A stretch of DNA of 38,772 bases. Source: a virus. This document shows positions 14,477 to 31,149 of the stretch, one piece after another (positions within the stretch are counted from its first letter, which is position 1; each line of letters starts with the position of its first letter). The stretch lies in UHGV virus genome UHGV-0236456. One strand, 5' to 3'. The position numbers and the translations under genes were made by a program. The notes beneath the pieces are model-generated. The model saw only the letters and a list, made by a program, of their open reading frames with translations. It did no database searches and was not told where the DNA came from.

Positions 14477-14552
14477 TGGTGGCCCCTACCGGACTTGAAC
14501 CGGTGACCGTGCGATTATGAGTCGCCAGCTCTAACCACTGAGCTAAAGGGCC
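14477..14552 (-). tRNA. tRNA with CAU anticodon (tRNA-Ile2/lysidine-type or Met)
   Basis: 76-nt cloverleaf read manually: acceptor GGCCCTT/AGGGGCC, anticodon loop CUCAUAA, T-loop GGTTCAAGTCC, 3' CCA; closest to E. coli ileX-type. Confidence 0.85.
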
Positions 14553-14579: not shown

Positions 14580-15407
14580 TTATTTCACCGGAACAAACGG
14601 AACAGCGGTATTACTGGTCATATACTGCGGTAATGTACCGTTCCATTTGTTGATCGCTTCCAACTCCATAACACCGGGGTTCTGGCGCAGAGCTTCACCA
14701 CGTAAACGAATGGCATCAGCTTCGGCCTGGGCTTTTGTGCGAATAGCATCAGCCTGTCCGGCAGCTTCCGCGCGCAGCATGTTGGCCTCTGCTTCACGTT
14801 GTTTGACCTCTTGCTCGCGTTGCAGGGTTTTTTGGTTTGCCGTGACTTTGGCGTTAATACTGTCAATAACTGTTGGCGGGTATTCTGGCTTACCTACATA
14901 AGAGAGGCTCATCACCTGAATGCCGATTGGCGTCATTTCTTCCTGAATGTCTTTAAGGGCTGCATCAAGCAATTCAGATTTGCCACCGTCGATAAATTTG
15001 TCGGTGGTCATTTTGCTGGCTAACCGGTTCAGAGCATCTGCAACCTTCTGGCGTAGATCGGTATCAGTAATATCATCTACACCTTTGCGATAGGTCTGAA
15101 ATACCGTTGTGACTTTTGCTGGATCAACCTTGTAGGCTACGCCGATGTGGTAACCAATGGTTGTTCCGTCGCTCATCTGGAAGCTGAACGGCTCATCGTA
15201 TGTCTTCATTTGCTTAAAGGTCGGGAAGATATAAACTTCAGTATTCAAGCCTGTCCAGTAGCGACCAACGCCAACTACTTCACCGATACCTTTATCATCC
15301 CCCAGCTTATTTACTTTGATCCCTACGTTACCTGGCTCTACCCGATCGCATCCGGTCAGACATAAAGAACCCAAAATAATCGCTGCACTAATCAACGTTT
15401 TTTTCAT
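14580..15407 (-). CDS. SPFH/band-7 (prohibitin-like) lipoprotein
   Basis: Lipoprotein signal MKKTLISAAIILGSLCLTGC (lipobox LTGC); SPFH core then Ala/Glu/Gln-rich coiled coil; 275 aa. Possibly P1 plp (unverified). Confidence 0.8.
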   Translation of the reverse strand: MKKTLISAAIILGSLCLTGCDRVEPGNVGIKVNKLGDDKGIGEVVGVGRYWTGLNTEVYIFPTFKQMKTYDEPFSFQMSDGTTIGYHIGVAYKVDPAKVTTVFQTYRKGVDDITDTDLRQKVADALNRLASKMTTDKFIDGGKSELLDAALKDIQEEMTPIGIQVMSLSYVGKPEYPPTVIDSINAKVTANQKTLQREQEVKQREAEANMLRAEAAGQADAIRTKAQAEADAIRLRGEALRQNPGVMELEAINKWNGTLPQYMTSNTAVPFVPVK

Positions 15408-15624
15408 TAATTAATTTCCTGGTTTTTTCACGAAAAAAGACTACTGCGAAAGCCGGGTAAATGAGCGCGAGAAGGACTCCCAACAATACAAGTATTGTGC
15501 TGTTAGATGAGATCATATTTGGCAAAAGCCAAACATACAGAACCAGTGACACAATCAAACAGAGGACGGCATAAATATATAACCGCACCCATAGCGTTCG
15601 ACATTTGTTCGAATTGTTCTGCAT
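15388..15624 (-). CDS. small integral membrane protein (two predicted TM helices)
   Basis: 78 aa with two hydrophobic stretches; overlaps the SPFH gene start by 20 nt (coupled). Possibly P1 upl (unverified). Confidence 0.5.
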   Translation of the reverse strand: MQNNSNKCRTLWVRLYIYAVLCLIVSLVLYVWLLPNMISSNSTILVLLGVLLALIYPAFAVVFFREKTRKLINEKNVD

Positions 15625-15799
15625 CCTCTCACTCCATTATTTAACGAATAAAAAAGCTGCGGTGCCGGGTGCCTCCCGGTGTCCTTTGGCTGGTTATCCA
15701 CCGTGGACGGGGAAACAAGGAGAAATGAATGGACTGATATAACCATTTCCCCGCGTGCGCTTAGCCGCATTCACCGCAACGGAAAGAGCATTCTTGGTG

Positions 15800-16552
15800 G
15801 ACCTGTAGATTGGGATATGAACCCGTTACAGGAGAATGCTCTTACCTGTTACGTGCTCCGTTTCGTGGAGCTAACGGCGGGTGATCGGGCCGCACCAGGC
15901 TGGACTTATTTCAGCGTTATGCTCATGCCAGAGAATCAAACTGTGATGGTCGGTGCTGAACTCCGACACAGGGTTGTAGCAAGCCCCGCAAAGCGCGCAC
16001 TACTGTAGTTGCGGCACATCAGCCTGTGCATTCACCACAATGTTGAGAACACTGGTTGTCACGCTGCAACGCAACATTTATTCGTAGATTGGGATATGAC
16101 CCCGTTACGCCAGTGTTCTCAACGTTGTAGTGCCGGTTACGGTTCCGGCCAGGCCTCTTCCTCAACGGGGTGTTCTCCATACGGACTACCGTTTATTGGT
16201 CGTTCCTGCGGTTTATGTTGTGAAGCCAGATGCTTATCTTCTGGTTGCTTCAAAGAGCTGCACTTCATCACAACGGTAAGAGCACTCGATGCATTTAAGC
16301 CAAGCCCCATAAGGGAGAATGCCCTTACCTGTTGTGTTGTGATGACCGGTGCTGATCTCCGGCTTGCGGTTATTTCAGACTCTCACGGGCGTTTAATTGC
16401 CCCGCCGAACAGCTCTTTTCCGCAATAGCTGCAATGTCTTTCGCGCATCAGCCTGCGCATTCATCACAACGGTAAGGGTACTTCGTAGGGATTCGAACCC
16501 TCTGCCAAGCTCGGCGATCTCCGACGTCGCAAAATACCCTTACCTGTTGTGC
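15800..16552. repeat. array of short repeated modules and nested inverted repeats containing degenerate tRNA T-arm-like fragments
   Basis: Repeats read directly: CATCAGCCTG(T/C)GCATTCA at 16018 and 16447; GTAGATTGGGATATGA(A/C)CCCGTTAC at 15805 and 16083; CACAACGGTAAG(A/G)G at 16269 and 16465 with inverted partners CCCTTACCTGTTGTG at 16322 and 16537; 18-bp inverted repeat 16038-16055/16110-16127. Confidence 0.5.
16481..16534 (-). pseudogene. tRNA-like fragment (T-arm GGGTTCGAATCCC) enclosed by a 16-17 bp inverted repeat; probably a tRNA remnant
   Basis: Minus-strand sequence contains a canonical T-loop but no D-arm or complete anticodon arm. Confidence 0.3.
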
Positions 16553-16628
16553 TGGTGCCGATTAACGGAATCGAACCGCTGACATCCTGCTTACAAGGCA
16601 GGCGCTCTACCAACTGAGCTAAACCGGC
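16553..16628 (-). tRNA. tRNA-Thr (UGU)
   Basis: 76-nt cloverleaf: acceptor GCCGGTT/AATCGGC, D-arm GCTC/GAGC, anticodon loop CUUGUAA, T-loop GGTTCGATTCC, CCA end. Confidence 0.85.
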
Positions 16629-16630
16629 AT

Positions 16631-16706
16631 TGGCGATGGTGGATGGATTTGAACCATCGACCCGTTGATTAACAGTCAACCGCTCTAACCGCTGAGCTAC
16701 ACCATC
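16631..16706 (-). tRNA. tRNA-Asn (GUU)
   Basis: 76-nt cloverleaf: acceptor GATGGTG/CACCATC, anticodon loop CUGUUAA, T-loop GGTTCAAATCC, CCA end; 2 nt from tRNA-Thr. Confidence 0.85.
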
Positions 16707-17374
16707 ACTTGCCGGGTACGTCTCCGGCGAGGGCTTCCACCTCCGTATGCTTTTCGGCGCACCGCGCCCTGGCTGCAATTCGGTAACAGGGGATGCATAA
16801 CCCTGGCTTCCAGCGTGATTAGCGCTTTCAGCATGACGGGATATACCCGTAAATTCGTGGAACTGTACCCAAAGTGCTGTTAAGCACCGCTGTTACGCTG
16901 AAAAGAAGACGCAACAGGAAAGGACGCTGACCAACAGATGGCCCCTTCTCGTTCATCTGGTTAATCACACCAGCGCCCTTACCTGTTGTGCCTCCCCGTT
17001 CCCTAATACACAGACGGGGACACTCTGCGGTCGATTTTTTGACGGGGGACGACTCATACCCCGTGGCGTCTGGCTTCTTAGGCCGCTACCATCATCAGAT
17101 CATCGTTTGCATTTACTTTAATGGTCAGTTTCTAAACCGCCGCAAAGTCGCTAACCATGACGAAAACCCTGAAAAAAACGCCCACCCGAAGATGGGCAAA
17201 CTGGAAGCTCGTAACGCACTTCGGTGTTGCCACTTAGGCGTATGGTCAACCTGGCAACTCGGCGTCATGAGGGGGAAGGAGTCACTACCCCGCCATACTT
17301 GCCGCCGCGCCTGTCGCGGCTAACAGCTAAATCGCTCTATAAATCACGATTCATTGAGGCGATATTACACTAAT

Positions 17375-17391
17375 AAATTTATTAGAGCAAT
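17375..17391 (-). promoter_or_regulatory. C1 operator, perfect 17/17 match (AAATTTATTAGAGCAAT = reverse complement of ATTGCTCTAATAAATTT), within a 16-bp palindrome CTAATAAATTTATTAG
   Basis: Read in sequence; overlaps the 3' end of the methyltransferase gene and heads the tRNA/helicase transcription unit. Confidence 0.6.
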
Positions 17392-19400
17392 ATTGCTATA
17401 ACGTCATGAGCAACACCTCGAGTGTCCCCCTTACAAGACACAGAACGTCTGGCAAAAAGAGGTTCCACTCTGAAGCCACTGTCCTGATAAAGTTCTCTGA
17501 TGTTTGGCGCGCCACTGTTAGTAATGAGAACCTTTGCACCTCGGCGATGAGCATCCGTCAACAGAGACGCCAGGCGTTTTTGCTCTTCAAACTTAAAGTC
17601 ATGACCGGAATAGTTCGTGAATCCCTCTGTATTTGGGAGCGGTTCATACGGCGGATCGCAAAAGATGACATCTCCTTCTCCGGCAGCTTCAATCACCGCA
17701 GCAAAATCACCACATACAAACTCAGAACGCCCTTCCGCACCAAGGAAGGCTTCCATCTCCTGCAATGGGAAATACGGAGTTTTATACTTCCCATAACCGA
17801 CATTGAACTCACCGGCTTGGTTGTAACGCGTCAATCCGTTAAAACAATGTCGGTTCAGGAACAAAAACGCCGCTGCGCGATGTAAATCATCATAGACTTG
17901 TTTGTTAAACGCATTCCGTACTGCCAGGTATCCTTCCTGCGTGTTGTAGTCCTGGAAGAAACGATGTGCCAGAGTGATAAGTGAATGCGCCTCGCGTTGC
18001 AGAGTCTTGTAAAAGTTAATCAGGTCAGCATTCACATCATTTAGCAGATTTTCCTGGTATCCGGCATTCATGAAGACAGCTCCGCCACCAACGAAAGGCT
18101 CAATCAGGCGCTTCCCTTCTGGCAAATAGCGAAAGATTTGTTCCAGAACACCAAATTTTCCACCAGCCCATTTGAATATGGACCGTTCGAATTCTGCCGC
18201 TGGTTTAACTTTTCGCTCTTTTGTTTCACTCCCTTCCTTCTGCCGACATGCAGCCTTGGCAATCCGATCGCCAATCCAGCGCATTACTGGTATCGCCATA
18301 CTATTGCCGATCGCTTTGTAACGCGGTCCGTCAGCTGCAAGCATCGCGGCCTCTTCTTCGCTCAAATCAGGATAGTTTTTGCGAAGGTATGCCAGTTCAT
18401 CTGAAGAAACTTTTTTACGCTTTTCCGTAGGGATCAATGTATGTCCATCAGGAAAACCTTGCAGCCTTTCACATTCGACAGGGATAAGACGGCGCATTCT
18501 ACCGTCGACGAGCAATACAATTGGTGCTTCATGGTTACATGTCAAAGTTGGTGCCGAATTATCGGTTTTTATCTCAGCCCCTCCTTGCCCATGTGCCATG
18601 GCAACTATGTTTGTATCATCGCAAGATCTGATAGCGATGTTTGAAGTATATCTGGTAGTTTCCTTCCCCTCGCCTCTGCTCGGCGCAATATTCCGGCGCA
18701 CGCCTTCGAACTCAAAAAGTACCGTTGCGGGATCGAGGTCTGTTCGAGCACTTGCGACAACAAACACGCGTCGGCGTCGTTGTGCCACTCCGAAGTATTG
18801 GGCATCAAGGATTCTCCAGGCCACCTTTCGCTGCGGTCCATAAATACAACCACACTGCGGCCACTTTGGAGCATGGCAACCGGTTTTGCCATCCCACCGC
18901 CAGAACGCGTTACTTTTTCCTGATTCAGGTCGATCACCTGGTTCAAATGGCGCATCTTCTCCAGCCAATCCGGCAAGGAAACATCCGAAGGCGTTATCTG
19001 CCGATGACAGGACTCCTGGGACATTTTCCCAGACGATAACTGTCGGTTTGAGGAAGGACTCAGACCGTTTGTCGTCAATTGCATTTGCAAGCTCCACATA
19101 CTTCAAAGTTAGCGCGCCGCGTTCATCATCAAGCCCACCACGTAAGCCCGCGATACTGAATGCCTGACAAGGCGTACCCCCGACGAGCACATCAGGGGAT
19201 TCGATTTCCCCAGCCAGGACTTTTTTGGCAAGTTTTGTCATGTCGCCAAGGTTGGCGACATGGGGCCAGCGGTGCGCAAGAACGGCAGATGGAAAAGGCT
19301 CGATTTCAGCAAACCACGCCGGACGCATACCCAACGGTTCCCAGGCAATACTCGCGGCTTCAATTCCACTGCAAACAGATCCATAGCACAGCTCTTTCAC
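17382..19400 (-). CDS. dmt: bifunctional DNA methyltransferase: N-terminal C5-cytosine MTase fused to C-terminal Dam-like N6-adenine MTase
   Basis: N-terminal [12 protein letters not shown] (PCQ) and VWENVPG (ENV) motifs; C-terminal [11 protein letters not shown]...DPPY motifs colinear with Dam; 672 aa. Confidence 0.9.
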
Positions 19401-23197: not shown

Positions 23198-24082
23198 ATG
23201 CCGGAAGAAAGTAAAGGCTTCCTTAGCGTTGAAGAAGTTGCAGGAAATACAGGAGAAATCCACAGCCTGAAGCCCAATAACAACAGCACTATACAACCCA
23301 TCGCTTTGTTGCGCTTAGGTGTGTTTGTGCCAACCTTAAAATCTACCAATGTGGCGCTACGTCGCGGATCGTCAGTTACAACAAACACAACGAACGCAAC
23401 TGAAGAACTATCAAGCCTCAAAATTGTTGAGCAGGAAGGCTATGAGGGAATTGAAATTCATGGTCCACGCCTGGATATGGATACTGATTTTAAGGTGTGG
23501 GTGGGCATAACCTCCGCGTTGTTTGACTACGCACCTGATGATGACGGCATAATCACCCTGCCATTCTCCGAGTTTGCCGATCGATGCGGCTATCCACGTA
23601 AGCGCCTTTCAAAGGCGTTCCGTAAAAGTATTGATGACTCTCTGACACGCATTCAGCAGACAGTTGTCAAATTCCGCTTCCCGGCGGCAAAAGGTCATCT
23701 CAATAACATTAACGTCAACTTGTTGGCATATAGCAGCCTGAATACCGAGCTTGATGTTATCGAGATCCAGCCGCAGAAACAGCTATCTGAACTTTACTAT
23801 GTTGACTATAAGCGAATCCTGAAGCTGAAGATGCTGGATAAACTAGGGCGCAAAGAGACGGCCAAGGTACTGTATACATTCTTTGAGGCTCTACCCGCCA
23901 ACCCGGCACCTGTCAGCATTGAGCGCCTTAGAGCGAGGCTTAATCTCAAATCATCCGTTAGCGTGCAAAATAGCGTTATCAGAAAAGCCATGAAAGATTT
24001 GGAAGCTATTGAATATCTTAAATTTTCAGAGATAAAAAACGGCAGGAAAATCGGCTTCCAGATCCATAAGCGCAATCCATAA
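23198..24082 (+). CDS. repA: plasmid replication initiator RepA (P1 RepA-like iteron-binding protein)
   Basis: Start at ATG 23198 (GGAG SD); flanked by iterons on both sides; sequence colinear with P1 RepA as recalled. Confidence 0.9.
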   Translation: MPEESKGFLSVEEVAGNTGEIHSLKPNNNSTIQPIALLRLGVFVPTLKSTNVALRRGSSVTTNTTNATEELSSLKIVEQEGYEGIEIHGPRLDMDTDFKVWVGITSALFDYAPDDDGIITLPFSEFADRCGYPRKRLSKAFRKSIDDSLTRIQQTVVKFRFPAAKGHLNNINVNLLAYSSLNTELDVIEIQPQKQLSELYYVDYKRILKLKMLDKLGRKETAKVLYTFFEALPANPAPVSIERLRARLNLKSSVSVQNSVIRKAMKDLEAIEYLKFSEIKNGRKIGFQIHKRNP

Positions 24083-24345
24083 TATTGACTATATGCGATA
24101 GCGAGAAGTTGACTATAGGCGACATTCGTTGACGCTGGTGGATTTTTGCTGGCGTCAATATTCTGCAAGTCGCTATTGAGATGGCTTTTAGGGGCATTTC
24201 ATCGCGTATAGTCAACGTTTCTCCCGACAATATCTTACATAGTCGATCTTTGGTGGAGTTAAATCGACTACAGTCAACTTTTGACTGTAGTCACATCGCG
24301 CATAGTCAACTATTCACATTAACCTTCGCGCATAGTCAACATTTG
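24083..24345. repeat. incA-type copy-control iteron array (about nine iterons in both orientations)
   Basis: Repeats TTGACTATA(T/G)GCGA and inverted CGCG(T/C)ATAGTCAAC read in sequence directly downstream of repA. Confidence 0.75.
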
Positions 24346-24374
24346 CGCGGTTCTCATCAAGCAGTGGTATTGAT

Positions 24375-25184
24375 ATGCAAGAAGAGAAACAACACTACCT
24401 CTACGTTCTGGTGCCAGAGAACGGAGATACTTTTAAAATCGGCATTTCATGTGGTCCATTGGCACGGTTTAAAGGGCTACAAGTGAGTCCCGATTTTGCG
24501 CTTTCACGGGTCTATCGTGGTACGCGTTTGGCAATGGTTAATCTTGAGCGGGCTTTACACGCAACCTTTTTCCCCTGGAATGCGCCGTGGGAGAAAAGCG
24601 CCGGTGGCGGGCATACTGAATGGTTTACACGAGAGTGTCTTGATAAGGTTTTGGCTCATATCGAATATCTAAATGATATGTGGGGAGGGATTCTCGAGCG
24701 CATTAAGTCGAATGATTTACTTCAGCGTCCAGTAGATGCTGCTTGCTCTTTCGAAAAAGAGCTGGATGTTACTTCTATCGTGACTTTCAAAGATGACGCA
24801 GGAATGAGGGACGTGGCTTATGTCTCCATATCTGGCTATGAACCGGACGCGATCCGCGCTCAATGTGAATTGCTGAAAGCAATGTTTATGCTTCGGACTA
24901 AATATCCCTGGGATACAGGGCGGGTGTGCTTCCCTATGGAAGAGTTAACCGCCACCATTGATTCCCAGCTTTACCACGATAATCCAGAGAAGTTTTTTAG
25001 CCTTTTAGCCGGTAATGGGCTTAACTGTGTGTCCGGGCTGGGGCGAAGTAGAATCCAACATGCCTCGCTCTTCGGTCCCTTCTTTTACGATCGACACGGG
25101 TACTTTGAGGCTGAACTTCCGGCGCTTACGCGTGCTATAGATACTATCGATTTCGAACGATTATTCGCTGCTCTTAGCAAATAA
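24375..25184 (+). CDS. T5orf172/GIY-YIG-like domain protein (putative nuclease) with uncharacterised C-terminal domain
   Basis: N-terminal YLYVLVPENGDTFKIGIS...ERALHATF...GGGHTEWF resembles the GIY-YIG-like T5orf172 (MUG113) pattern; 269 aa; own terminator; sits between incA iterons and parA. Confidence 0.7.
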   Translation: MQEEKQHYLYVLVPENGDTFKIGISCGPLARFKGLQVSPDFALSRVYRGTRLAMVNLERALHATFFPWNAPWEKSAGGGHTEWFTRECLDKVLAHIEYLNDMWGGILERIKSNDLLQRPVDAACSFEKELDVTSIVTFKDDAGMRDVAYVSISGYEPDAIRAQCELLKAMFMLRTKYPWDTGRVCFPMEELTATIDSQLYHDNPEKFFSLLAGNGLNCVSGLGRSRIQHASLFGPFFYDRHGYFEAELPALTRAIDTIDFERLFAALSK

Positions 25185-25191
25185 CACTGAT

Positions 25192-25212
25192 GCCCCTGAA
25201 CGGGGCTTTTTT
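25192..25212 (+). terminator. rho-independent terminator (GCCCC-TGAAC-GGGGC + T6)
   Basis: Read in sequence immediately after the T5orf172-like gene. Confidence 0.6.
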
Positions 25213-25352
25213 GTGCCCTCCTTGTAACTCTCAATCGTGCAAAATGAACCAAACATGCAGAGAATGCTATGTACAAGCATCTACGCATACATTATTATTT
25301 TATGCAGCATTTTTAATTAAATTCAAAAATACAGCATAAAGGATGACTTTCG

Positions 25353-26549
25353 ATGAGTGATTCCAGCCAGCTTCACAAGGTTGCTCAAAGAGCAAATAGA
25401 ATGCTCAATGTTCTGACTGAACAAGTACAGTTGCAAAAGGATGAGCTACACGCGAACGAGTTTTACCAGGTCTATGCGAAAGCGGCACTGGCAAAATTGC
25501 CTCTACTGACTCGTGCGAACGTTGACTATGCCGTAAGTGAAATGGAAGAAAAGGGTTATGTTTTCGATAAACGCCCTGCTGGCTCTTCAATGAAATATGC
25601 GATGTCAATTCAGAACATCATTGACATATATGAACATCGCGGAGTGCCAAAATACCGGGATCGCTACAGCGAAGCGTATGTGATTTTCATCTCCAATCTT
25701 AAAGGCGGTGTGTCAAAAACTGTATCGACGGTTTCTCTGGCGCATGCAATGCGTGCTCATCCTCATCTTCTGATGGAAGATTTAAGGATTCTGGTTATTG
25801 ACCTTGATCCGCAATCTTCAGCAACGATGTTTTTAAGCCATAAACACTCTATTGGTATCGTAAACGCAACATCTGCACAGGCTATGTTGCAGAATGTAAG
25901 CCGTGAAGAGCTGTTAGAGGAGTTTATTGTTCCTTCTGTTGTACCTGGGGTTGACGTTATGCCTGCGTCGATTGACGATGCCTTTATTGCATCCGATTGG
26001 AGAGAGCTGTGCAATGAGCATCTACCGGGTCAGAACATCCATGCAGTCCTGAAAGAAAATGTGATTGATAAGCTGAAGAGCGATTATGACTTTATCCTCG
26101 TTGATAGTGGTCCTCACCTTGACGCCTTCCTGAAAAATGCTTTGGCCTCGGCCAATATACTGTTTACACCTCTGCCGCCTGCAACGGTTGATTTCCACTC
26201 ATCGCTTAAATACGTTGCCCGCCTTCCTGAGTTGGTGAAACTCATTTCGGATGAAGGCTGCGAGTGTCAGCTTGCAACTAACATTGGTTTTATGTCCAAG
26301 TTGAGTAACAAGGCAGACCATAAGTATTGCCATAGCCTGGCTAAAGAAGTGTTCGGTGGGGATATGCTTGATGTTGTCCTCCCTCGCCTTGACGGTTTTG
26401 AACGCTGCGGCGAGTCTTTTGACACTGTTATTTCAGCTAACCCGGCAACGTATGTTGGTAGTGCTGATGCATTGAAGAACGCGCGAATTGCTGCGGAAGA
26501 TTTTGCTAAAGCAGTTTTTGACCGTATTGAATTTATCAGATCTAACTGA
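25353..26549 (+). CDS. parA: type Ia partition ATPase ParA
   Basis: 398 aa; deviant Walker A KGGVSKT; N-terminal DNA-binding extension typical of P1 ParA/SopA; followed by parB and parS. Confidence 0.95.
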   Translation: MSDSSQLHKVAQRANRMLNVLTEQVQLQKDELHANEFYQVYAKAALAKLPLLTRANVDYAVSEMEEKGYVFDKRPAGSSMKYAMSIQNIIDIYEHRGVPKYRDRYSEAYVIFISNLKGGVSKTVSTVSLAHAMRAHPHLLMEDLRILVIDLDPQSSATMFLSHKHSIGIVNATSAQAMLQNVSREELLEEFIVPSVVPGVDVMPASIDDAFIASDWRELCNEHLPGQNIHAVLKENVIDKLKSDYDFILVDSGPHLDAFLKNALASANILFTPLPPATVDFHSSLKYVARLPELVKLISDEGCECQLATNIGFMSKLSNKADHKYCHSLAKEVFGGDMLDVVLPRLDGFERCGESFDTVISANPATYVGSADALKNARIAAEDFAKAVFDRIEFIRSN

Positions 26550-26565
26550 GGAGTAAGAAACCCCC

Positions 26566-27567
26566 ATGTCAAAGAAAAACAGACCAACAATTGGGCGAAC
26601 CCTTAATCCTTCAATATTAAGCGGATTTGATAGTTCTTCAGCCTCTGGCGATCGAGTCGAGCAGGTATTCAAGTTATCAACTGGTCGCCAGGCCACATTT
26701 ATTGAAGAGGTAATACCTCCGAACCAGGTAGAAAGCGATACCTTTGTTGATCAGCATAACAACGGGCGTGACCAGGCATCTCTTACGCCAAAATCATTAA
26801 AAAGTATCCGAAGCACTATTAAGCATCAGCAATTTTACCCTGCAATAGGTGTTAGACGGGCTACAGGGAAAATTGAAATTTTGGATGGTTCCCGGCGTCG
26901 AGCTTCTGCCATCTTAGAGAACGTAGGGTTGCGGGTTTTAGTCACGGACCAGGAGATCAGCGTTCAGGAAGCGCAAAATTTAGCGAAAGACGTTCAGACA
27001 GCATTGCAGCACAGCATTCGAGAAATAGGTCTGCGTTTGATGCGAATGAAAAATGATGGGATGAGTCAGAAGGATATTGCAGCCAAAGAAGGGCTGTCTC
27101 AGGCGAAGGTCACGCGTGCTCTCCAGGCTGCGAGTGCTCCGGAAGAATTAGTCGCCCTTTTCCCTGTGCAGTCGGAATTAACCTTTTCGGACTACAAAAC
27201 GCTTTGTGCTGTTGGCGACGAAATGGGGAACAAGAATTTAGAGTTTGATCAGCTTATTCAAAACATATCCCCGGAAATAAACGACATCTTATCCATTGAA
27301 GAAATGGCCGAAGATGAAGTTAAAAATAAAATCCTGCGCTTGATAACAAAGGAAGCCTCACTACTCACGGATAAAGGTTCTAAAGATAAGTCCGTAGTTA
27401 CTGAATTATGGAAATTTGAGGACAAGGATCGCTTTGCAAGGAAGCGCGTGAAAGGCCGTGCATTTTCTTATGAGTTTAATCGACTTTCAAAAGAGCTACA
27501 GGAAGAACTCGACAGGATGATTGGGCATATCCTTAGAAAGAGCCTCGATAAAAAGCCGAAGCCTTAA
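26566..27567 (+). CDS. parB: partition centromere-binding protein ParB
   Basis: 333 aa; SD GAGGAG; ParB-type HTH region; immediately upstream of parS-like site. Confidence 0.95.
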   Translation: MSKKNRPTIGRTLNPSILSGFDSSSASGDRVEQVFKLSTGRQATFIEEVIPPNQVESDTFVDQHNNGRDQASLTPKSLKSIRSTIKHQQFYPAIGVRRATGKIEILDGSRRRASAILENVGLRVLVTDQEISVQEAQNLAKDVQTALQHSIREIGLRLMRMKNDGMSQKDIAAKEGLSQAKVTRALQAASAPEELVALFPVQSELTFSDYKTLCAVGDEMGNKNLEFDQLIQNISPEINDILSIEEMAEDEVKNKILRLITKEASLLTDKGSKDKSVVTELWKFEDKDRFARKRVKGRAFSYEFNRLSKELQEELDRMIGHILRKSLDKKPKP

Positions 27568-27670
27568 ACTTTCGCCATTCAAATTTCACTATTAACCTAC
27601 TGTTTTTAAAGTAAATACCTATAAAATTTCAAGGTGAAATCGCCACGATTTCACCTTGAATTTTACCTTC
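27568..27670. other. parS: parS-like partition centromere (heptamer box A ATTTCAC/GTGAAAT, hexamer box B TCGCCA, AT-rich IHF-like spacer)
   Basis: Box motifs read in sequence directly after parB; arrangement matches P1 parS as recalled. Confidence 0.75.
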
Positions 27671-27771
27671 CTCCCCTACTCCCGAAAAAAATAAAAAAAT
27701 TGCTTGTCACGAGAAAGTCAACAAGTGACTTTCAATAAAATCTCTTCCGAAAAGGGATTCACACAAGTGCC

Positions 27772-29499
27772 TTGTGTTTAAGGAAGAGTAAATTGAGTAA
27801 CTTACGCGAATACCAGAATCGTATTGCAGATATCGCAAAACGCTCTAAAGCTGTGCTTGGCTGGGCAAGCACTGCGCAGTTCGGTACTGATAACCAATTC
27901 ATTAAAGATGATGCCGCGCGTGCCGCATCTATCCTTGAAGCTGCACGTAAAGACCCGGTTTTTGCGGGTATCTCTGATAATGCCACCGCTCAAATCGCTA
28001 CAGCGTGGGCAAGTGCACTGGCTGACTACGCCGCAGCACATAAATCTATGCCGCGTCCGGAAATTCTGGCCTCCTGCCACCAGACGCTGGAAAACTGCCT
28101 GATTGAGTCCACCCGCAATAGCATGGATGCCACTAATAAAGCGATGCTGGAATCCGTCGCAGCAGAGATGATGAGCGTTTCTGACGGTGTTATGCGTCTG
28201 CCTTTATTCCTCGCGATGATCCTGCCTGTTCAGTTGGGGGCAGCTACCGCTGATGCGTGTACCTTCATTCCGGTTACGCGTGACCAGTCCGACATCTATG
28301 AAGTCTTTAACGTGGCAGGTTCCTCTTTTGGTTCTTATGCTGCTGGTGATGTTCTGGACATGCAATCCGTCGGTGTGTACAGCCAGTTACGCCGCCGCTA
28401 TGTGCTGGTGGCAAGCTCCGATGGCACCAGCAAAACCGCAACCTTCAAGATGGAAGACTTCGAAGGCCAGAATGTACCAATCCGAAAAGGTCGCACTAAT
28501 ATCTACGTTAACCGTATTAAGTCTGTTGTTGATAACGGTTCCGGCAGCCTACTTCACTCGTTTACTAATGCTGCTGGTGAGCAAATCACTGTTACCTGCT
28601 CTCTGAACTACAACATTGGTCAGATTGCCCTGTCGTTCTCCAAAGCGCCGGATAAAGGCACTGAGATCGCAATTGAGACGGAAATCAATATTGAAGCCGC
28701 TCCTGAGCTGATCCCGCTGATCAACCACGAAATGAAGAAATACACCCTGTTCCCAAGCCAGTTCGTTATCGCGGCTGAGCACACGGTACAGGCGGCGTAT
28801 GAAGCACAGCGTGAATTTGGTCTGGACCTGGGTTCCCTACAGTTCCGCACCCTGAAGGAATACCTGTCTCATGAACAGGATATGCTGCGTCTTCGCATCA
28901 TGATCTGGCGTACTCTTTCGACCGACACCTTTGACATCGCTCTGCCGGTTAACCAGTCCTTTGATGTATGGGCAACCATCATTCGTGGCAAATTCCAGAC
29001 TGTATATCGCGACATTATTGAGCGCGTTAAATCTTCTGGTGCGATGGGGATGTTTGCTGGTGCTGATGCAGCATCTTTCTTCAAACAGTTGCCGAAGGAT
29101 TTCTTCCAGCCAGCCGAAGACTATATCCAGACTCCGTATGTTCACTACATCGGTACCCTGTTCGGTAACGTGAAAGTGTACGAAGTACCTGCTGGTATTT
29201 GTAAGAACTTAACGACAGAGAACATTCAGTTCAGCTCGATGGATGTGCTGTGCTACGTCCGTGATGAAAATCCGGGTAAAGCAGGCTTCGTGACTGGTGA
29301 TGCTGTCCCGGCCATCCCGTTCCAGCATCCGACCACTCCGGCGCTGGTCAACCGTACCACGCTGTGGGGTTCGGCTATCAACGATATGCACCCACGCAAC
29401 GGCGCTGATTACTTCACTCGTGTAACGCTGACAATGGCCAAAAAAGGCGGGCTTAACTTCATAAGCGGCGACACGATTGATGCCGGTGACTCTGAGTAA
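27772..29499 (+). CDS. putative major head protein (P1 gp23-like by size and position); start codon uncertain (ATG 27772 or downstream TTG)
   Basis: 575 aa ORF followed by a stable hairpin; assignment by size/synteny only. Confidence 0.6.
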   Translation: MCLRKSKLSNLREYQNRIADIAKRSKAVLGWASTAQFGTDNQFIKDDAARAASILEAARKDPVFAGISDNATAQIATAWASALADYAAAHKSMPRPEILASCHQTLENCLIESTRNSMDATNKAMLESVAAEMMSVSDGVMRLPLFLAMILPVQLGAATADACTFIPVTRDQSDIYEVFNVAGSSFGSYAAGDVLDMQSVGVYSQLRRRYVLVASSDGTSKTATFKMEDFEGQNVPIRKGRTNIYVNRIKSVVDNGSGSLLHSFTNAAGEQITVTCSLNYNIGQIALSFSKAPDKGTEIAIETEINIEAAPELIPLINHEMKKYTLFPSQFVIAAEHTVQAAYEAQREFGLDLGSLQFRTLKEYLSHEQDMLRLRIMIWRTLSTDTFDIALPVNQSFDVWATIIRGKFQTVYRDIIERVKSSGAMGMFAGADAASFFKQLPKDFFQPAEDYIQTPYVHYIGTLFGNVKVYEVPAGICKNLTTENIQFSSMDVLCYVRDENPGKAGFVTGDAVPAIPFQHPTTPALVNRTTLWGSAINDMHPRNGADYFTRVTLTMAKKGGLNFISGDTIDAGDSE

Positions 29500-29559
29500 T
29501 CAGGGGAAGTTCTCCGTTTAACATAGCGCCCCCGTGCGGGGCGCATAACAGGGAAAGTT

Positions 29560-31149
29560 ATGTCTCAATATTCAATTCAACAGTCATTAGGTAATGCATC
29601 CGGCGTCGCGGTTAGCCCGATCAATGCCGATGCGACGTTATCTACCGGTGTTGCATTAAATAGCAGCTTGTGGGCTGGTATTGGCGTATTTGCGCGTGGC
29701 AAGCCGTTTACTGTTCTTGCGGTTACTGAGTCCAATTACGAAGATGTTCTTGGCGAACCGCTGAAGCCGTCTTCCGGCTCACAGTTTGAACCAATTCGCC
29801 ATGTGTACGAAGCTATTCAGCAAACGTCTGGTTATGTTGTCCGTGCTGTTCCGGATGATGCGAAGTTCCCGATTATTATGTTCGATGAATCAGGCGAACC
29901 GGCTAACAGTGCGTTGCCATACGGTTCTGAAATTGAACTTGATAGCGGCGAAGCCTTTGCTATCTACGTTGATGATGGTGATCCGTGTATTTCACCTACC
30001 CGTGAGTTAACCATCGAAACGGCAACAGCGGACAGCGCGGGTAATGAACGCTTCCTCTTAAAACTGACCCAGACGACTTCGCTCGGCGTGGTAACGACCC
30101 TGGAGACACACACTGTGTCTTTGGCGGAAGAAGCGAAAGATGACATGGGCCGCTTGTGTTATCTGCCTACGGCTCTGGAAGCCCGTTCTAAATATCTGCG
30201 CGCGGTTGTTAATGAAGAGCTGATTTCTACAGCGAAAGTAACAAATAAAAAATCGGTGGCATTCACTGGCGGTACCAATGGCGATCAGTCGAAAATCTCA
30301 ACCGCTGCTTACCTGCGTGCGGTTAAAGTGCTGAATAATGCGCCGTACATGTACACCGCTGTTCTTGGCCTGGGCTGCTATGACAATGCGGCTATCACCG
30401 CATTAGGTAAAATCTGTGCAGATCGCCTGATTGATGGCTTCTTTGATGTCAAACCGACATTAAGGTACGCAGAAGCACTAACAGCTGTTGAGGGTACCGG
30501 TTTACTTGGTACCGATTATGTAAGCTGTTCTGTCTATCACTACCCGTTCTCCTGCAAAGACAAATGGACCCAATCCCGTGTGGTCTTCGGTCTGTCTGGC
30601 GCGGCGTATGCGGCGAAAGCTCGTGGCGTCAAGAAAAACTCTGATGTCGGCGGTTGGCATTACTCACCGGCTGGTGAAGAACGTGCCGTCATTGCTCGTG
30701 CGTCAATTCAACCGCTGTATCCGGAAGATACCCCGGACGAAGAAGCAATGGTCAAGGGCCGTCTCAATAAAGTATCTGTTGGCACCTCTGGCCAGATGAT
30801 CATCGACGATGCTTTAACTTGCTGCACGCAGGATAACTATCTGCACTTCCAGCACGTCCCATCCCTGATGAATGCAATCAGTCGTTTCTTTGTCCAGTTA
30901 GCCCGACAGATGAAGCATAGCCCGGACGGTATTACTGCGGCTGGCCTGACTAAAGGGATGACCAAACTTTTAGATCGCTTTGTCGCCTCCGGCGCTCTGG
31001 TGGCTCCTCGTGATCCCGATGCTGACGGTACAGAACCGTATGTGCTGAAAGTTACGCAGGCGGAATTCGATAAATGGGAAGTAGTCTGGGCCTGCTGCCC
31101 GACTGGCGTAGCCCGTCGTATCCAGGGCGTACCGCTGCTTATTAAGTAA
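29560..31149 (+). CDS. putative tail sheath protein (P1 gp22-like)
   Basis: 529 aa; SD AGGGAAAG; C-terminal region resembles conserved sheath C-terminal domain pattern (tentative). Confidence 0.65.
   Translation: MSQYSIQQSLGNASGVAVSPINADATLSTGVALNSSLWAGIGVFARGKPFTVLAVTESNYEDVLGEPLKPSSGSQFEPIRHVYEAIQQTSGYVVRAVPDDAKFPIIMFDESGEPANSALPYGSEIELDSGEAFAIYVDDGDPCISPTRELTIETATADSAGNERFLLKLTQTTSLGVVTTLETHTVSLAEEAKDDMGRLCYLPTALEARSKYLRAVVNEELISTAKVTNKKSVAFTGGTNGDQSKISTAAYLRAVKVLNNAPYMYTAVLGLGCYDNAAITALGKICADRLIDGFFDVKPTLRYAEALTAVEGTGLLGTDYVSCSVYHYPFSCKDKWTQSRVVFGLSGAAYAAKARGVKKNSDVGGWHYSPAGEERAVIARASIQPLYPEDTPDEEAMVKGRLNKVSVGTSGQMIIDDALTCCTQDNYLHFQHVPSLMNAISRFFVQLARQMKHSPDGITAAGLTKGMTKLLDRFVASGALVAPRDPDADGTEPYVLKVTQAEFDKWEVVWACCPTGVARRIQGVPLLIK

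What the first reader, a model, noticed from the sequence alone, without database searches (positions are those of the whole stretch)
15625..16552. ORF-poor mosaic of tRNA-like fragments and nested inverted repeats abutting the functional tRNA-Thr/Asn genes
Seen in sequence: ~0.9 kb between the small membrane-protein gene and tRNA-Thr has no convincing same-strand ORF but is built from short repeated modules. These are CATCAGCCTG(T/C)GCATTCA twice, GTAGATTGGGATATGA(A/C)CCCGTTAC twice, and CACAACGGTAAG(A/G)G paired with inverted CCCTTACCTGTTGTG at least three times (a fourth inverted copy lies at 16974). One hairpin cassette (arms 16465-16480 / 16535-16551) encloses a fragment with a canonical tRNA T-loop (GGGTTCGAATCCC), and an 18-bp near-perfect inverted repeat (16038-16055 / 16110-16127) flanks a 54-nt loop. 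Inference: decayed tRNA genes, a cluster of structured small RNAs or processing signals co-transcribed with the tRNAs, or the scar of replaced accessory genes (my recalled P1 map places tciA-C somewhere in this neighbourhood, and no such genes are present here).
Basis: partly seen in the sequence, partly recalled or inferred. Interest (0 to 1): 0.55.

Follow-up and report, generated by a model that had tools for sequence, protein, structure and literature searches.

The report
Tandem tRNA-like RNA modules in P1
The "gene-poor mosaic" next to the phage's tRNA genes is a tandem array of two conserved structured-RNA modules, a long leader hairpin and a tRNA-shaped RNA with pairing loops; the tRNA-shaped module is found in prophages of many Proteobacteria, has no entry in the RNA family database searched, and has no known function.

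Summary
The window is a P1-like phage-plasmid. The region lies on the minus strand inside the C1-controlled ban operon, directly after tRNA-Asn and tRNA-Thr.

It consists of four tandem modules. Each has two parts:
- A roughly 20-bp leader hairpin with a conserved base (CACAAC-A-GGUAAG / CUUWCC-GUUGUG), a covarying mid-stem and a hypervariable tip.
- A cloverleaf-like "tRNA-like" domain: a 7-bp closing stem, AAU, a D-arm-like hairpin GCRCAGGCUGAUGYGC, a variable core, and a T-arm-like hairpin GCCGG-AGAUCAGCA-CCGGC. The two loops are complementary.

Homologues show strong covariation and far more G·U than A·C, which places the selection on the minus-strand RNA. Phage lambda has one such hairpin right after tR'. 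In other phages the same hairpin precedes real tRNAs in the same register.

The tRNA-like core occurs in prophages of Enterobacterales, Pseudomonas, Burkholderiales and Xanthomonadales. Rfam 15 does not hold it. The fourth domain scores as a sub-threshold relative of the Hfq-binding prophage sRNA STnc100/PasD.

The P1 "upl/plp" ORFs on the opposite strand lack support. The region is not a deletion scar. Function is inferred, not shown: processing and punctuation of the transcript, yielding stable small RNAs.

The parts
16465..16551 (-). Leader hairpin A. It has the canonical base CACAAC-A-GGUAAGGG / CCCUUACC-GUUGUG and starts 1-2 nt after the CCA end of tRNA-Thr. Its tip holds a T-arm-like GGGUUCGAAUCCC at 16488-16500.
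   Evidence: MFE -40.3 kcal/mol, z = -6.1. Arms found. The stem covaries across 88 homologous arm pairs.
16338..16468 (-). tRNA-like domain 1, kissing-loop type. Closing stem UGUGAUG (16468-16462) / CAUCACA (16344-16338); AAU; D-like hairpin 16458-16443; 79-nt core; T-like hairpin 16363-16345. Loop-loop pairing joins GCUGAU (16452-16447) with AUCAGC (16356-16351).
   Evidence: Model R1 hits: 39.1 bits for the 5' half and 23.7 bits for the 3' half. 98% identical to copies in mEp460, IME207 and Stx phages. Family covariation.
16269..16336 (-). Leader hairpin B, with the canonical base. The same tip sequence occurs in a lambda-type late leader, locus L133.
   Evidence: MFE -33.6 kcal/mol, z = -5.7. 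Tip identity to L133. It is the most frequent tip class.
16219..16272 (-). tRNA-like domain 2, a minimal form. Closing stem UGUGAUG / CUUCACA and T-like hairpin CCAGA-AGAUAAGCA-UCUGG (16244-16226). It has no D-like hairpin.
   Evidence: R1 full-length hit, 19.9 bits, E about 1e-4. A homologue with compensating closing-stem changes is in L167. Its own fold is not significant (z = -0.4).
16133..16218 (-). Spacer 1. It holds a further T-like hairpin, GCCGG-AACCGUAA-CCGGC (16149-16132), that abuts hairpin C.
   Evidence: Read from the sequence. Not tested further.
16033..16132 (-). Leader hairpin C, a divergent form with 23-bp arms CACUACAACGUUGAGAACACUGG / CCAGUGUUCUCAACAUUGUGGUG. Its tip shares GUAACGGGKUCAUAUCCCAAUCUAC with hairpin D.
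   Evidence: Inverted repeat I1, 91% complementary. MFE -49 kcal/mol, z = -7.7.
15942..16039 (-). tRNA-like domain 3, kissing-loop type. Closing stem UGUGGUG / CAUCACA; D-like hairpin 16029-16014; T-like hairpin 15967-15949. Loop-loop pairing of 5 bp.
   Evidence: R1 hits of 30.6 and 19.5 bits. The MFE is a cloverleaf-like multi-branch fold. G·U pairs in the closing stem form only on the minus strand.
15854..15941 (-). Spacer 2. It ends in the hairpin GCUCC-ACGAAAC-GGAGC. It lies roughly where P7, D6 and CMS-2020a carry a tRNA-Ser(UGA) gene, but shows no convincing homology to that gene.
   Evidence: Alignment A1. tRNA calls in the relatives.
15775..15853 (-). Leader hairpin D, with base CGUAAC-A-GGUAAGAG / CUCUUUCC-GUUGCG and the conserved U·U mismatch.
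   Evidence: MFE -34.7 kcal/mol, z = -6.5. Arms found.
15650..15778 (-). Domain 4, STnc100/PasD-like. Closing stem UGCGGUG (15778-15772) / CACCGCA (15664-15658); AAU; small hairpin; core; CCGGG-AGGCA-CCCGG (15679-15665); then GC and a U6 tract (15655-15650), a possible terminator or Hfq site.
   Evidence: Rfam STnc100 (RF02076) 37.8 bits, E = 5.8e-6, below the gathering score of 47, matching model positions 31-147. Relatives score 33-43 bits. Fold z = -3.7. R1 is not significant here (10.5 bits).
16553..16706 (-). tRNA-Thr(UGU) 16553-16628 and tRNA-Asn(GUU) 16631-16706, the functional tRNAs at the head of the array.
   Evidence: ARAGORN. Rfam tRNA 73.4 and 74.5 bits.
16908..16990 (-). Leader-type hairpin E, upstream of the tRNAs (CACAACAGGUAAGGGCGCUG... 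/ ...CAGCGUCCUUUCCUGUUGCG).
   Evidence: MFE -37.9 kcal/mol, z = -4.4. Motif hits.
17359..17396 (-). C1 operator / Pban promoter region (ATTGCTCTAATAAATTT on the minus strand, within a 19-nt inverted repeat). This is the presumed start of the transcript that carries the array.
   Evidence: Inverted repeat I2. Positional equivalence to the P1 Oban a/b operator and P1ban/P2ban features. Promoter activity was not tested here.

Best explanation
The region is non-coding. It is a tandem array of four structured-RNA modules on the minus strand. They are presumably transcribed with tRNA-Asn and tRNA-Thr from the C1-repressed ban-operon promoter.

Each module has two parts. The first is a roughly 20-bp leader hairpin, the same element that sits just after tR' in the phage lambda late leader. 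The second is a cloverleaf-like tRNA mimic: a 7-bp closing stem, AAU, a D-arm-like and a T-arm-like hairpin whose loops pair with each other, and a variable core in place of the anticodon arm. The last domain is a relative of the prophage sRNA STnc100/PasD and ends in a U tract.

Most likely mechanism (inferred, not shown): the hairpins are RNase III-type cutting sites, and the tRNA-like domains are recognised or trimmed like tRNAs. The long operon transcript would then be punctuated into mature tRNAs, discrete stable small RNAs, and a downstream mRNA with a structured 5' end. Some of the released RNAs, at least the STnc100-like one, may then act in trans.

The identity as a conserved RNA array is well supported. 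The processing enzymes and the biological role are not established.
For: - Context. The window is P1-like and the region lies between Pban/Oban and ban, on the strand of all flanking genes and tRNAs.
- Hairpin stem, 88 distinct homologous arm pairs: 1473 Watson-Crick, 100 G·U and only 5 A·C cells. Compensatory pairs occur at five or more positions, and a U·U mismatch is conserved in 76 of 88.
- tRNA-like core, 50 diverse sequences: 98.6% of cells paired, 10 pairs changed on both sides, 122 such cells, covariation score 0.324 against 0.100 in shuffles (0 of 500 reached it) and at most 0.119 when partners are slid. There are 34 different closing-stem sequences. Loop-loop pairs change together: G-C 84, A-U 4, G·U 8, A·C 1; C-G 95, U-A 2; U-A 94, C-G 2.
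- Relation to tRNAs. In other phages the same hairpin is followed, in the same register, by real tRNA-Arg(UCU) and tRNA-Gly genes. It is also followed by intermediates that have a canonical T arm, D arm and CCA but an oversized core.
- Lambda. Reference lambda has the hairpin at 44787-44862, directly after the 6S RNA terminator. RNase III processing sites in lambda late RNA are on record (Daniels et al. 1988, cited in PMC7547250).
- Specificity. A model of the core hits the 38.8-kb window significantly only inside this region.
- Relatives differ by whole-module gains and losses.
- The fourth domain matches STnc100 with E = 5.8e-6. PasD2, a validated Hfq-dependent sRNA, starts exactly at the equivalent closing stem.
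- Opposite-strand ORFs. They have no Pfam family. Variable sites by codon position are 4/6/4 and 4/2/1. The ORFs change length and start with module content. RefSeq annotates nothing at the one tip sequence queried in the roughly 500 P1-like E. coli replicons that carry it. No sigma-70-like promoter was found on either strand.
Against: - No transcript, cleavage or binding data for P1 were available, so processing by RNase III or RNase P is an analogy.
- I could not read the lambda RNase III cut coordinates, so their coincidence with this hairpin is inferred.
- The domains lack a tRNA T-loop consensus, an anticodon arm and a CCA end (11 of 189 have CCA). ARAGORN and the Rfam tRNA model reject them.
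- Thermodynamic z-scores of domains 1-3 alone are not significant.
- The alignments used for pair counts were extracted with pairing criteria, which inflates the percentage paired, though not the diversity of pair types.
- Domain 4 is below the Rfam gathering score.
- An open frame longer than 100 aa persists on the plus strand in all relatives, so translation of plp cannot be formally excluded.
Confidence: 0.68

Rival explanations
1. The tRNA-like domains are molecular mimics. They would bind or titrate a conserved tRNA-recognising factor, such as a host anticodon or acceptor-stem nuclease used in anti-phage defence, RNase P, or a modification or CCA-adding enzyme, rather than serving mainly as processing signals.
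For: The two hairpins and their loops are almost invariant across Enterobacterales, Pseudomonas, Burkholderiales and Xanthomonadales, while the stems covary. This suggests a conserved binding partner. The architecture is tRNA-like and the element sits next to phage tRNA genes. P1 carries several copies.
Against: No partner has been identified. There is no anticodon-loop or CCA mimicry. The element sits in operon leaders rather than next to defence or anti-defence genes in the few contexts examined.
Confidence: 0.13
2. The modules act in cis on transcription, either as put-like processive antitermination or as attenuation. The shared GUUGUG segment would switch between pairing with the hairpin 5' arm and pairing with the 3' end of the domain. 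This would let RNA polymerase read through the terminators that lie between Pban and ban.
For: The modules lie in leaders of operons that contain terminators: the lambda late operon after tR', the early-left operons of mEp460 and a Pseudomonas prophage, and the P1 ban operon, which has an intrinsic terminator at 17198-17179 and a U tract at 15655-15650. In lambda the MFE and centroid folds choose the two alternative pairings. High sequence conservation would fit binding to RNA polymerase.
Against: The core model finds nothing in the HK022 early region that holds putL and putR. The boxA-like UGCUCUU in the hairpin arm covaries away. Lambda already has Q for its late operon. Four tandem copies are not expected for a polymerase modifier.
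Confidence: 0.1
3. The region encodes the proteins Upl and Plp on the plus strand, as annotated in P1 and RCS47, and the repeats are incidental.
For: P1 and RCS47 annotate upl and plp here. PHROG families exist for the upl-like ORF. A plus-strand ORF of 88-143 aa is present in every relative examined.
Against: - Neither ORF has a Pfam family, and the PHROG hits to the upl-like ORF are near full length with very low E-values, as expected if the families hold only close P1-like copies; membership was not inspected.
- The plp-like ORFs start at TTG, and their length changes with module content. P1 plp overlaps tRNA-Thr.
- Substitutions show no third-position excess.
- The 109-aa form is frameshifted in most relatives, and a 13-nt deletion hits the Upl start in Ro157c2YLVW.
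- The P7 annotation and RefSeq PGAP call nothing here.
- No promoter-like site was found.
- G·U versus A·C asymmetry shows selection on the other strand.
Confidence: 0.05
4. The region is neutral debris: decaying tRNA pseudogenes and recombination scars with no present function.
For: There are tRNA-like fragments, such as the T-arm-like motif in hairpin A. Relatives show whole-module indels. Domain 2 is truncated and hairpin C is divergent.
Against: Identity with lambdoid and Klebsiella phage copies is 98%. The core is conserved across bacterial orders with compensatory changes. The array is retained in roughly 10% of complete E. coli genomes through P1-like plasmids.
Confidence: 0.04

Closest known systems
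Phage lambda late-operon leader, pR'-6S RNA-tR' to S, with its RNase III processing sites (Daniels et al. 1988, Virology 167:568)
   Same: The leader hairpin is the same element in sequence: lambda 44787-44862 has CACAACAGGUAAGAGCAUUG...CAGUGCUCUUUCCGUUGUG. It is followed by a domain closed by GUUGUGCUG/CAGCACAAC. A lambda-type leader (L133) even carries the tip of P1 hairpin B.
   Different: Lambda has one module and the window has four or five. The lambda domain lacks the conserved D-like and T-like hairpins (no R1 hit). I could not verify that the published RNase III cuts fall in this hairpin.
STnc100 (Rfam RF02076) and PasD1/PasD2, Hfq-dependent prophage sRNAs downstream of Q or stx
   Same: Domain 4 aligns to STnc100 model positions 31-147. 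It shares the GGUGAAU start, a small hairpin, CCGGGAGGCACCCGG and the closing CACC. PasD2 begins exactly at that closing stem. All are phage-borne and lie in operon leaders near tRNAs.
   Different: The score is below the gathering threshold (37.8 against 47). The window copy lacks the 3' seed region and terminator hairpin (model positions 148-206), and no sigma-70-like promoter site was found anywhere in the region. Domains 1-3 belong to a different subtype that Rfam does not detect.
Transfer RNA and known tRNA mimics: the tmRNA tRNA-like domain, bacterial Y RNA YrlA, plant-virus tRNA-like structures, and the stable RNAs (species 1 and 2) of the T4 tRNA cluster. The named mimics are from my own knowledge.
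   Same: The shared features are a 7-bp closing stem, a short linker, a 4-bp hairpin with an 8-nt loop, a central arm, a 5-bp hairpin abutting the 3' strand, and loop-loop contact. Minimal members are 70-85 nt. The element occupies tRNA positions in phage tRNA clusters.
   Different: There is no T-loop consensus, anticodon loop or CCA. The D/T contact is a 6-bp Watson-Crick kissing helix. tRNA finders and the tRNA, tmRNA and YrlA models reject it.
RNase III hairpin next to a tRNA in the E. coli metY-nusA-infB operon (Regnier and Grunberg-Manago 1989, cited in PMC5371410)
   Same: A long hairpin adjoining a tRNA inside a mixed tRNA/mRNA operon, where cleavage releases the tRNA (reference title).
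   Different: There is no sequence relation. The host hairpin is single and lies downstream of the tRNA.

Membership tests
tRNA (RF00005) | Detected by tRNA covariance model or ARAGORN | tested here: not met
   Only the three real tRNAs are called in the window. Kissing-type domains in 20 or more loci are not called.
tRNA (RF00005) | Cloverleaf geometry: 7-bp acceptor, 4-bp D stem, 5-bp T stem abutting the acceptor 3' strand | tested here: met
   Alignment A2 and pair counts. Minimal 70-85-nt members fold as cloverleaves.
tRNA (RF00005) | T-loop UUCRANY, 7-nt anticodon loop, 3' CCA | tested here: not met
   The T-like loop is AGAUCAGCA. The core is variable, from 3 to 259 nt. CCA follows in 11 of 189.
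STnc100 / PasD (RF02076) | Score at or above the Rfam gathering threshold (47 bits) | tested here: not met
   Domain 4 scores 37.8 bits and relatives 33-43 bits. PasD2 itself scores 41.4 bits.
STnc100 / PasD (RF02076) | Core alignment: GGUGAAU, hairpin, CCGGGAGGCACCCGG, closing CACC | tested here: met
   cmscan alignment to model positions 31-147.
STnc100 / PasD (RF02076) | Own promoter, 3' seed region and Rho-independent terminator; Hfq dependence | tested here: inconclusive
   No promoter-like site was found. A U6 tract follows the closing stem, but model positions 148-206 are absent. Hfq binding is not testable here.
Lambdoid late-leader hairpin | Base CACAAC-A(bulge)-GGUAAG / CUUWCC-GUUGUG with a continuous stem of about 19 bp | tested here: met
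   Hairpins A, B and D, and E with one change, match. Hairpin C is divergent.
Lambdoid late-leader hairpin | Cleavage by RNase III | not testable with these tools
   Only the citation could be confirmed.
Kissing-loop tRNA-like phage RNA (defined here, model R1) | 7-bp closing stem + AAU + GCRCAGGCUGAUGYGC ... GCCGG-AGAUCAGCA-CCGGC, with complementary loops | tested here: met
   Domains 1 and 3 meet it in full. Domain 2 lacks the first hairpin (19.9 bits). Domain 4 does not meet it.
Protein-coding genes upl / plp | Conserved reading frame, third-position bias, homologues beyond near-identical copies | tested here: not met
   The numbers of variable sites are small (14 and 7), so the codon test is weak.
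lambda nut site (boxA + boxB) | Conserved single-stranded boxA (YGCUCUUUA) followed by a boxB hairpin | tested here: not met
   The boxA-like UGCUCUU lies inside the stem and is replaced together with its partner: UACCCUU in hairpin A, and GCAGCUU and UGAUCUU elsewhere.
HK022 put RNA | Sequence or structure similarity to putL/putR | tested here: not met
   No R1 hit at E up to 0.01 in HK022 24000-31000. A functional analogy was not tested.

The most novel reading that the evidence does not exclude
The kissing-loop tRNA-like RNA is a previously undescribed and widespread class of phage-borne tRNA mimic. Its chassis (closing stem, D-like and T-like hairpins locked by a 6-bp loop-loop helix) is conserved across Proteobacterial prophages because it engages a conserved host machine. 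Its variable core, and in enterobacteria the hypervariable tip of the attached leader hairpin, are swappable 'cargo'. On this reading the element is a natural counterpart of the engineered tRNA scaffold for expressing stable small RNAs. P1-like phages carry three or four such units in tandem where the reference annotation shows two hypothetical proteins.
Probability: 0.3. Interest if true: 0.8.

Novelty: new variant of a known kind. Interest (0 to 1): 0.68.

Why it matters
- **Annotation.** It replaces two long-standing hypothetical genes of a model phage, P1 upl and plp, with a conserved RNA array. It also flags similar doubtful ORFs: lambda orf-64 and mEp460_036/037.
- **One evolutionary unit.** It ties together the P1 ban-operon leader, the lambda late leader, the tRNA clusters of lambdoid and P22-like phages, and the Hfq-binding prophage sRNAs STnc100/PasD.
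- **An uncatalogued RNA.** It exposes a strongly conserved, covarying tRNA-shaped RNA that Rfam 15 lacks and that occurs from Escherichia to Pseudomonas and Burkholderiales. Such conservation usually means a specific molecular partner.
- **Testability.** Finding the partner could explain how temperate phages process or protect long operon transcripts, or how they interfere with tRNA-directed host functions. P1 and lambda are the easiest systems in which to test it.

Tried and rejected
- **nut-like site.** The boxA-like UGCUCUU plus a following hairpin looked like a nut site. I rejected this because the boxA-like letters covary with their stem partner and are absent from hairpin A.
- **Hammerhead-like CUGAUG...GAAA in domain 1.** There is no stem II and no Rfam ribozyme hit.
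- **Integron attC-like folded DNA site.** The arms do not fit RYYYAAC/GTTRRRY (own knowledge). G·U far exceeds A·C, which points to RNA rather than DNA.
- **Tips as guides or spacers.** No complementarity to their own flanks beyond chance: mean longest run 6.4 against 6.5 in controls. No matches outside hairpins among about 2 Mb of fetched phage DNA. Tip D matches only P1-like replicons in 5426 E. coli genomes. Short seed-type targets cannot be excluded.
- **Spacer 2 as a decayed copy of the P7/D6 tRNA-Ser.** The alignment is unconvincing.
- **put RNA membership.** No hit in HK022.
- **Rfam.** Nothing other than tRNA and STnc100 reaches an E-value below 0.005 in the region. Nothing covers eight diverse genomic copies, nor a minimal 76-nt copy apart from an 18-nt resemblance to rydB.
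- **Literature.** A full-text search for the core sequences found no paper. The P1 genome paper (PMC523184) is not held.
- **Covariance model.** A model without the variable core splits each domain into two half hits, so it is a detector of the two halves rather than a full-length model.
- **Weak R1 hit at 2953-3003(-).** It lies in ordinary coding-like sequence, and I judged it to be chance.
Full report
**Where the region lies.** The window is a P1-like (Punavirus) phage-plasmid. Bases 15400-17400 are 98-99% identical to phages vB_EcoM-813R1 and RCS47 and about 98% identical, with gaps, to P1.

In P1 the region lies in the ban operon. Reading on the window's minus strand, the order is:
- the C1 operator and Pban;
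- a 'dicF-like region';
- tRNA-Asn and tRNA-Thr;
- the stretch in question;
- tciABC;
- tRNA-Ile(CAU);
- ban.

In this window, as in RCS47, tciABC is replaced by a 78-aa membrane protein and a 275-aa SPFH lipoprotein. P1 and RCS47 annotate two ORFs, upl and plp, on the opposite (plus) strand of the stretch. The P7 record annotates nothing there.

**Check of the observation.**
- The 25-nt repeat has 2 matches where shuffles give none.
- The minus strand folds much better than shuffled sequence (z = -7.3) and better than the plus strand (z = -3.9).
- Five long hairpins fold individually with z from -4.4 to -7.7.
- The 'fourth inverted copy' near 16975 has its own partner and forms a fifth hairpin upstream of the tRNAs.

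**Anatomy.** Read 5' to 3' on the minus strand, the stretch is four tandem modules.

Each module starts with a leader hairpin. In hairpins A, B and D the base is CACAAC, a bulged A, then GGUAAG, paired with CUUWCC and GUUGUG. The stem continues for about seven more pairs and carries a tip of 30-60 nt. Hairpin C is a divergent version with 23-bp arms.

Each hairpin is followed by a domain that begins inside the last bases of the hairpin (GUUGUGRUGAAU). The domain is closed by pairing of UGUGRUG with CAYCACA 50-130 nt downstream.

In domains 1 and 3 the closing stem encloses the following, in order:
- AAU;
- the hairpin GCRCAGGCUGAUGYGC;
- a variable core;
- the hairpin GCCGG-AGAUCAGCA-CCGGY, which abuts the 3' strand of the closing stem.

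Domain 2 is a minimal form without the first hairpin. Domain 4 has the same outline with different hairpins and ends in GC plus six U. Coordinates are given under 'parts'.

**The hairpin in other phages.** Among 123 instances there were 70 distinct hairpins. Their tips fall into 31 unrelated sequence classes between identical arms.

Over 88 distinct arm pairs:
- the 19 stem positions give 1473 Watson-Crick cells, 100 G·U cells and 5 A·C cells;
- several positions show three or four different pair types;
- one position is a conserved U·U mismatch in 76 of 88;
- the paired fraction of the variable part is 0.97, against at most 0.89 in 1000 shuffles.

The excess of G·U over A·C shows that selection acts on an RNA of the strand that corresponds to the window's minus strand.

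The hairpin is also present in reference lambda at 44787-44862, directly after the terminator of the 6S RNA and before gene S. It is not annotated there. A lambda-type leader in locus L133 carries the tip of P1 hairpin B. Tips are therefore exchanged independently of their flanks.

RNase III processing sites in lambda late RNA were published by Daniels et al. 1988. I could confirm the citation but not the coordinates. That they fall in this hairpin is an inference, and whether it is the only long duplex in that leader was not tabulated.

**The domain is tRNA-like.** Four lines of evidence support this.

1. In several phages the same hairpin is followed, in the same register, by a real tRNA. 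Examples are tRNA-Arg(UCU) in L131, L156 and L163, and tRNA-Gly in L135. In these the first bases of the acceptor stem are the GUG of GUUGUG.
2. Other loci hold intermediates. L172 has the closing stem UGUGGUG/CACCACA, a canonical D arm, the canonical T arm GCCGG-UUCGAUU-CCGGC and CCA, but about 100 nt in place of the anticodon arm. L152 is similar. ARAGORN calls neither.
3. The geometry matches tRNA: a 7-bp closing stem, a 3-nt linker, a 4-bp hairpin with an 8-nt loop, a central region, and a 5-bp hairpin directly abutting the 3' strand. The shortest members are 70-85 nt and fold as cloverleaves with one central arm.
4. The two conserved loops are complementary (GCUGAU and AUCAGC), in the place of the D-loop/T-loop contact of tRNA.

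**Covariation in the domain.** In 97 gap-free distinct copies the closing stem shows three or four Watson-Crick pair types at five of its seven positions. The T-like stem is 100% paired with CG-to-UA changes. The loop-loop pairs change together: when G20 is A, the partner is U in 4 of 5; both C21-to-U changes have A opposite; both U22-to-C changes have G opposite.

On a 50-sequence alignment of diverse copies with the core removed, the pair-counting tool gives:
- 98.6% of cells paired;
- 10 pairs with changes on both sides, in 122 cells;
- a covariation score of 0.324, against 0.100 in shuffles (0 of 500 as high) and at most 0.119 with partners slid.

One caveat applies. The copies were extracted with the requirement that the closing stem pairs at 6 or more of 7 positions and that the T-like stem pairs fully. 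This inflates the percentage paired. It does not inflate the diversity of pair types, and it does not affect the loop-loop pairs, which were not selected for.

**Distribution.** It also reached the limit in one-genome-per-species bacterial contigs, where about 4 chance matches are expected for 596 Gbp by my calculation.

The isolates include many Enterobacterales, many Pseudomonas species, Burkholderiales (Massilia, Pandoraea, Caballeronia, Janthinobacterium, Comamonas), Xanthomonadales, Halomonas, Chromohalobacter and Chitiniphilus. Metagenome bins labelled Flavobacterium, Coriobacteriia, Phycisphaerales and Acidobacteriota also carry it, but these may be mis-binned phage contigs.

Nearly all copies have the matching 3' half and a covarying closing stem, with 34 different closing-stem sequences in all. 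Only 32 of 189 distinct copies are preceded by the enterobacterial hairpin, so the two modules are separable.

The contexts examined are operon leaders:
- after tR' in lambda-like phages;
- between the repressor gene and the early-left genes in mEp460;
- upstream of an early-type gene block that includes an Erf recombinase gene about 3 kb downstream in a Pseudomonas prophage, and downstream of an S24 repressor gene in another Pseudomonas locus;
- after the late antiterminator gene and a tRNA in a Klebsiella phage;
- before tRNAs in IME207.

**Relation to catalogued RNAs.** Rfam 15 finds only the three tRNAs and a sub-threshold match of domain 4 to STnc100: 37.8 bits against a gathering score of 47, E = 5.8e-6, model positions 31-147. 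The equivalent domain of P1, P7, D6, SJ46 and Ro157c2YLVW scores 33-43 bits. Rfam finds nothing on eight diverse genomic copies of the kissing-loop core. On a minimal copy it finds nothing except an 18-nt resemblance of the T-like hairpin to rydB.

STnc100 and PasD are prophage sRNAs found near Q, stx and tRNA genes. [quoted passage not shown] PasD2 (NC_011601 741157-741328) starts exactly at the closing stem GCAUGGUGAAU. Its seed and terminator lie 3' of the tRNA-like core. Domain 4 therefore resembles the core of that family but lacks its 3' extension. No sigma-70-like promoter site was found anywhere in the region on either strand.

A covariance model of the kissing-loop core (R1), run over the whole window with filters off, gives significant hits only in this region:
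- both halves of domain 1 (39.1 and 23.7 bits);
- both halves of domain 3 (30.6 and 19.5 bits);
- all of domain 2 (19.9 bits).

R1 does not hit lambda, the PasD2 locus or the HK022 early region.

**Variation among P1 relatives.** Relatives differ by whole modules.
- P1 lacks domain 1 and hairpin B.
- P7 and D6 lack hairpin A and domain 1, have a different third domain, and carry a tRNA-Ser(UGA).
- Ro157c2YLVW and CMS-2020a add a tRNA-Tyr.

This pattern fits recombination between the repeated arms. It is not a one-off deletion scar.

**Are upl and plp genes?**
- Neither ORF has a Pfam family. The upl-like ORF matches two PHROG families at near full length with very low E-values, as expected if those families hold only close P1-like copies; I did not inspect their membership. 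The plp-like ORF matches none.
- The 109-aa upl-like ORF of the window is cut by a 1-nt indel at 15727 in most relatives. This leaves the 63-aa P1 Upl intact. A 13-nt deletion removes the Upl start in Ro157c2YLVW.
- The plp-like ORF always starts at TTG. Its length runs from 88 to 143 aa depending on which modules are present, and in P1 it runs into tRNA-Thr.
- Variable sites fall 4/6/4 and 4/2/1 on codon positions 1/2/3, with no third-position excess. The numbers are small.
- RefSeq annotates nothing at the one tip sequence queried (15795-15835, in hairpin D) in the P1-like replicons of 530 of 5426 complete E. coli genomes.
- No sigma-70-like promoter site is found on either strand between 14400 and 17450.

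I conclude that translation is unsupported but not formally excluded.

**Mechanism.**

What is shown: a conserved, covarying RNA structure on the strand of the operon; kinship with the lambda leader hairpin; positional equivalence with tRNAs; and kinship of domain 4 with an Hfq-binding sRNA family.

What is inferred:
- transcription from Pban after loss of C1 repression;
- cleavage of the roughly 20-bp hairpins by RNase III, by analogy with lambda late RNA and with the tRNA-adjacent RNase III site of the metY-nusA operon;
- recognition of the tRNA-like domains by tRNA-processing enzymes. P1 C4 RNA is a known RNase P substrate (my own knowledge).

One further feature is worth noting. The GUUGUG segment can pair either with the hairpin 5' arm or with the 3' end of the domain. 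In lambda the MFE and centroid folds choose different partners. Cutting the hairpin could therefore free this segment to complete the closing stem.

The biological role remains open. It could be transcript punctuation and stabilisation, trans-acting small RNAs, or mimicry of tRNA towards a host factor. I rank punctuation with release of stable RNAs first, because the modules sit in operon leaders and tRNA clusters of many unrelated phages.

**Verdict.** The element is a new variant of known kinds (tRNA-like RNAs and phage leader RNAs or sRNAs), and it corrects the reference annotation of P1. It points to a widespread RNA family that is not in Rfam 15 and that a full-text search of the held library did not find.

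Noticed in passing
window 17162-17263 and 17179-17198 (minus strand): The segment that P1 annotates as a 'dicF-like region' is present between Pban and the tRNAs. It ends in a strong intrinsic terminator, GCCCAUCUUCGGGUGGGC followed by U7. Transcription must read through this terminator to reach the tRNAs, the array and ban.
   Followed up: partly
window 14580-15624 (minus strand): Where P1, P7, D6 and SJ46 have tciA-tciB-tciC, this window has a 78-aa membrane protein and a 275-aa SPFH/Band-7 lipoprotein, as do RCS47 and Ro157c2YLVW. This is an accessory-gene swap just downstream of the RNA array.
   Followed up: partly
window 14477-14552 (minus strand): ARAGORN calls this tRNA as Met(CAU). 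It corresponds to P1 trnI, which is annotated as tRNA-Ile2 with a CAU anticodon that would need lysidine modification.
   Followed up: no
L007 1638-1725, L008 1638-1725, L006 2223-2310: P7, D6 and CMS-2020a carry an 85-87-nt tRNA-Ser(UGA) inside the array. It scores 43-47 bits on the Rfam selenocysteine-tRNA model, just under that model's threshold of 47. The D6 record notes that tRNAscan-SE did not assign it an amino acid.
   Followed up: no
NC_001416 44621-44815 (L243 322-516); L004 2378-2931: Lambda orf-64 overlaps the 6S RNA, tR' and the start of the leader hairpin. mEp460_036 and mEp460_037 are annotated across the tRNA-like RNA on the opposite strand. All three look like ORF calls over structured RNA.
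   Followed up: no
L284 7126-7143; compare window 16226-16244: The T-like hairpin GCCGGAGAUCAGCACCGG matches positions 30-47 of the Rfam model of rydB, an E. coli core-genome sRNA (GCCGGAGAUAAGCGCCGG; 13.7 bits, not significant). Domain 2 has the same AGAUAAGCA loop. RydB might be a remnant of this family.
   Followed up: no
viral loci L131-L202 (hairpin tips): Within one tip class, variants appear to keep an internal stem through G·U-compatible changes: GGCAU, GACAU and GACGU opposite AUGUC, around a constant AGGGCUGUUCCACCCU hairpin (by eye). The tips may therefore themselves be structured RNAs under selection rather than filler.
   Followed up: no
L004 4980-5137: mEp460 has an isrK match (67 bits) and a C4 antisense RNA match (44.2 bits, cut by the end of the locus) in the start of the gene annotated as regulatory protein Rha. 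This is unrelated to the array.
   Followed up: no
window 16132-16149 and 16711-16728 (minus strand): Two further hairpins have the GCCGG/CCGGC stem of the T-like arm but other loops: GCCGG-AACCGUAA-CCGGC before hairpin C, and GCCGG-AGACGUAC-CCGGC just before tRNA-Asn. They may be remnants of additional domains.
   Followed up: no
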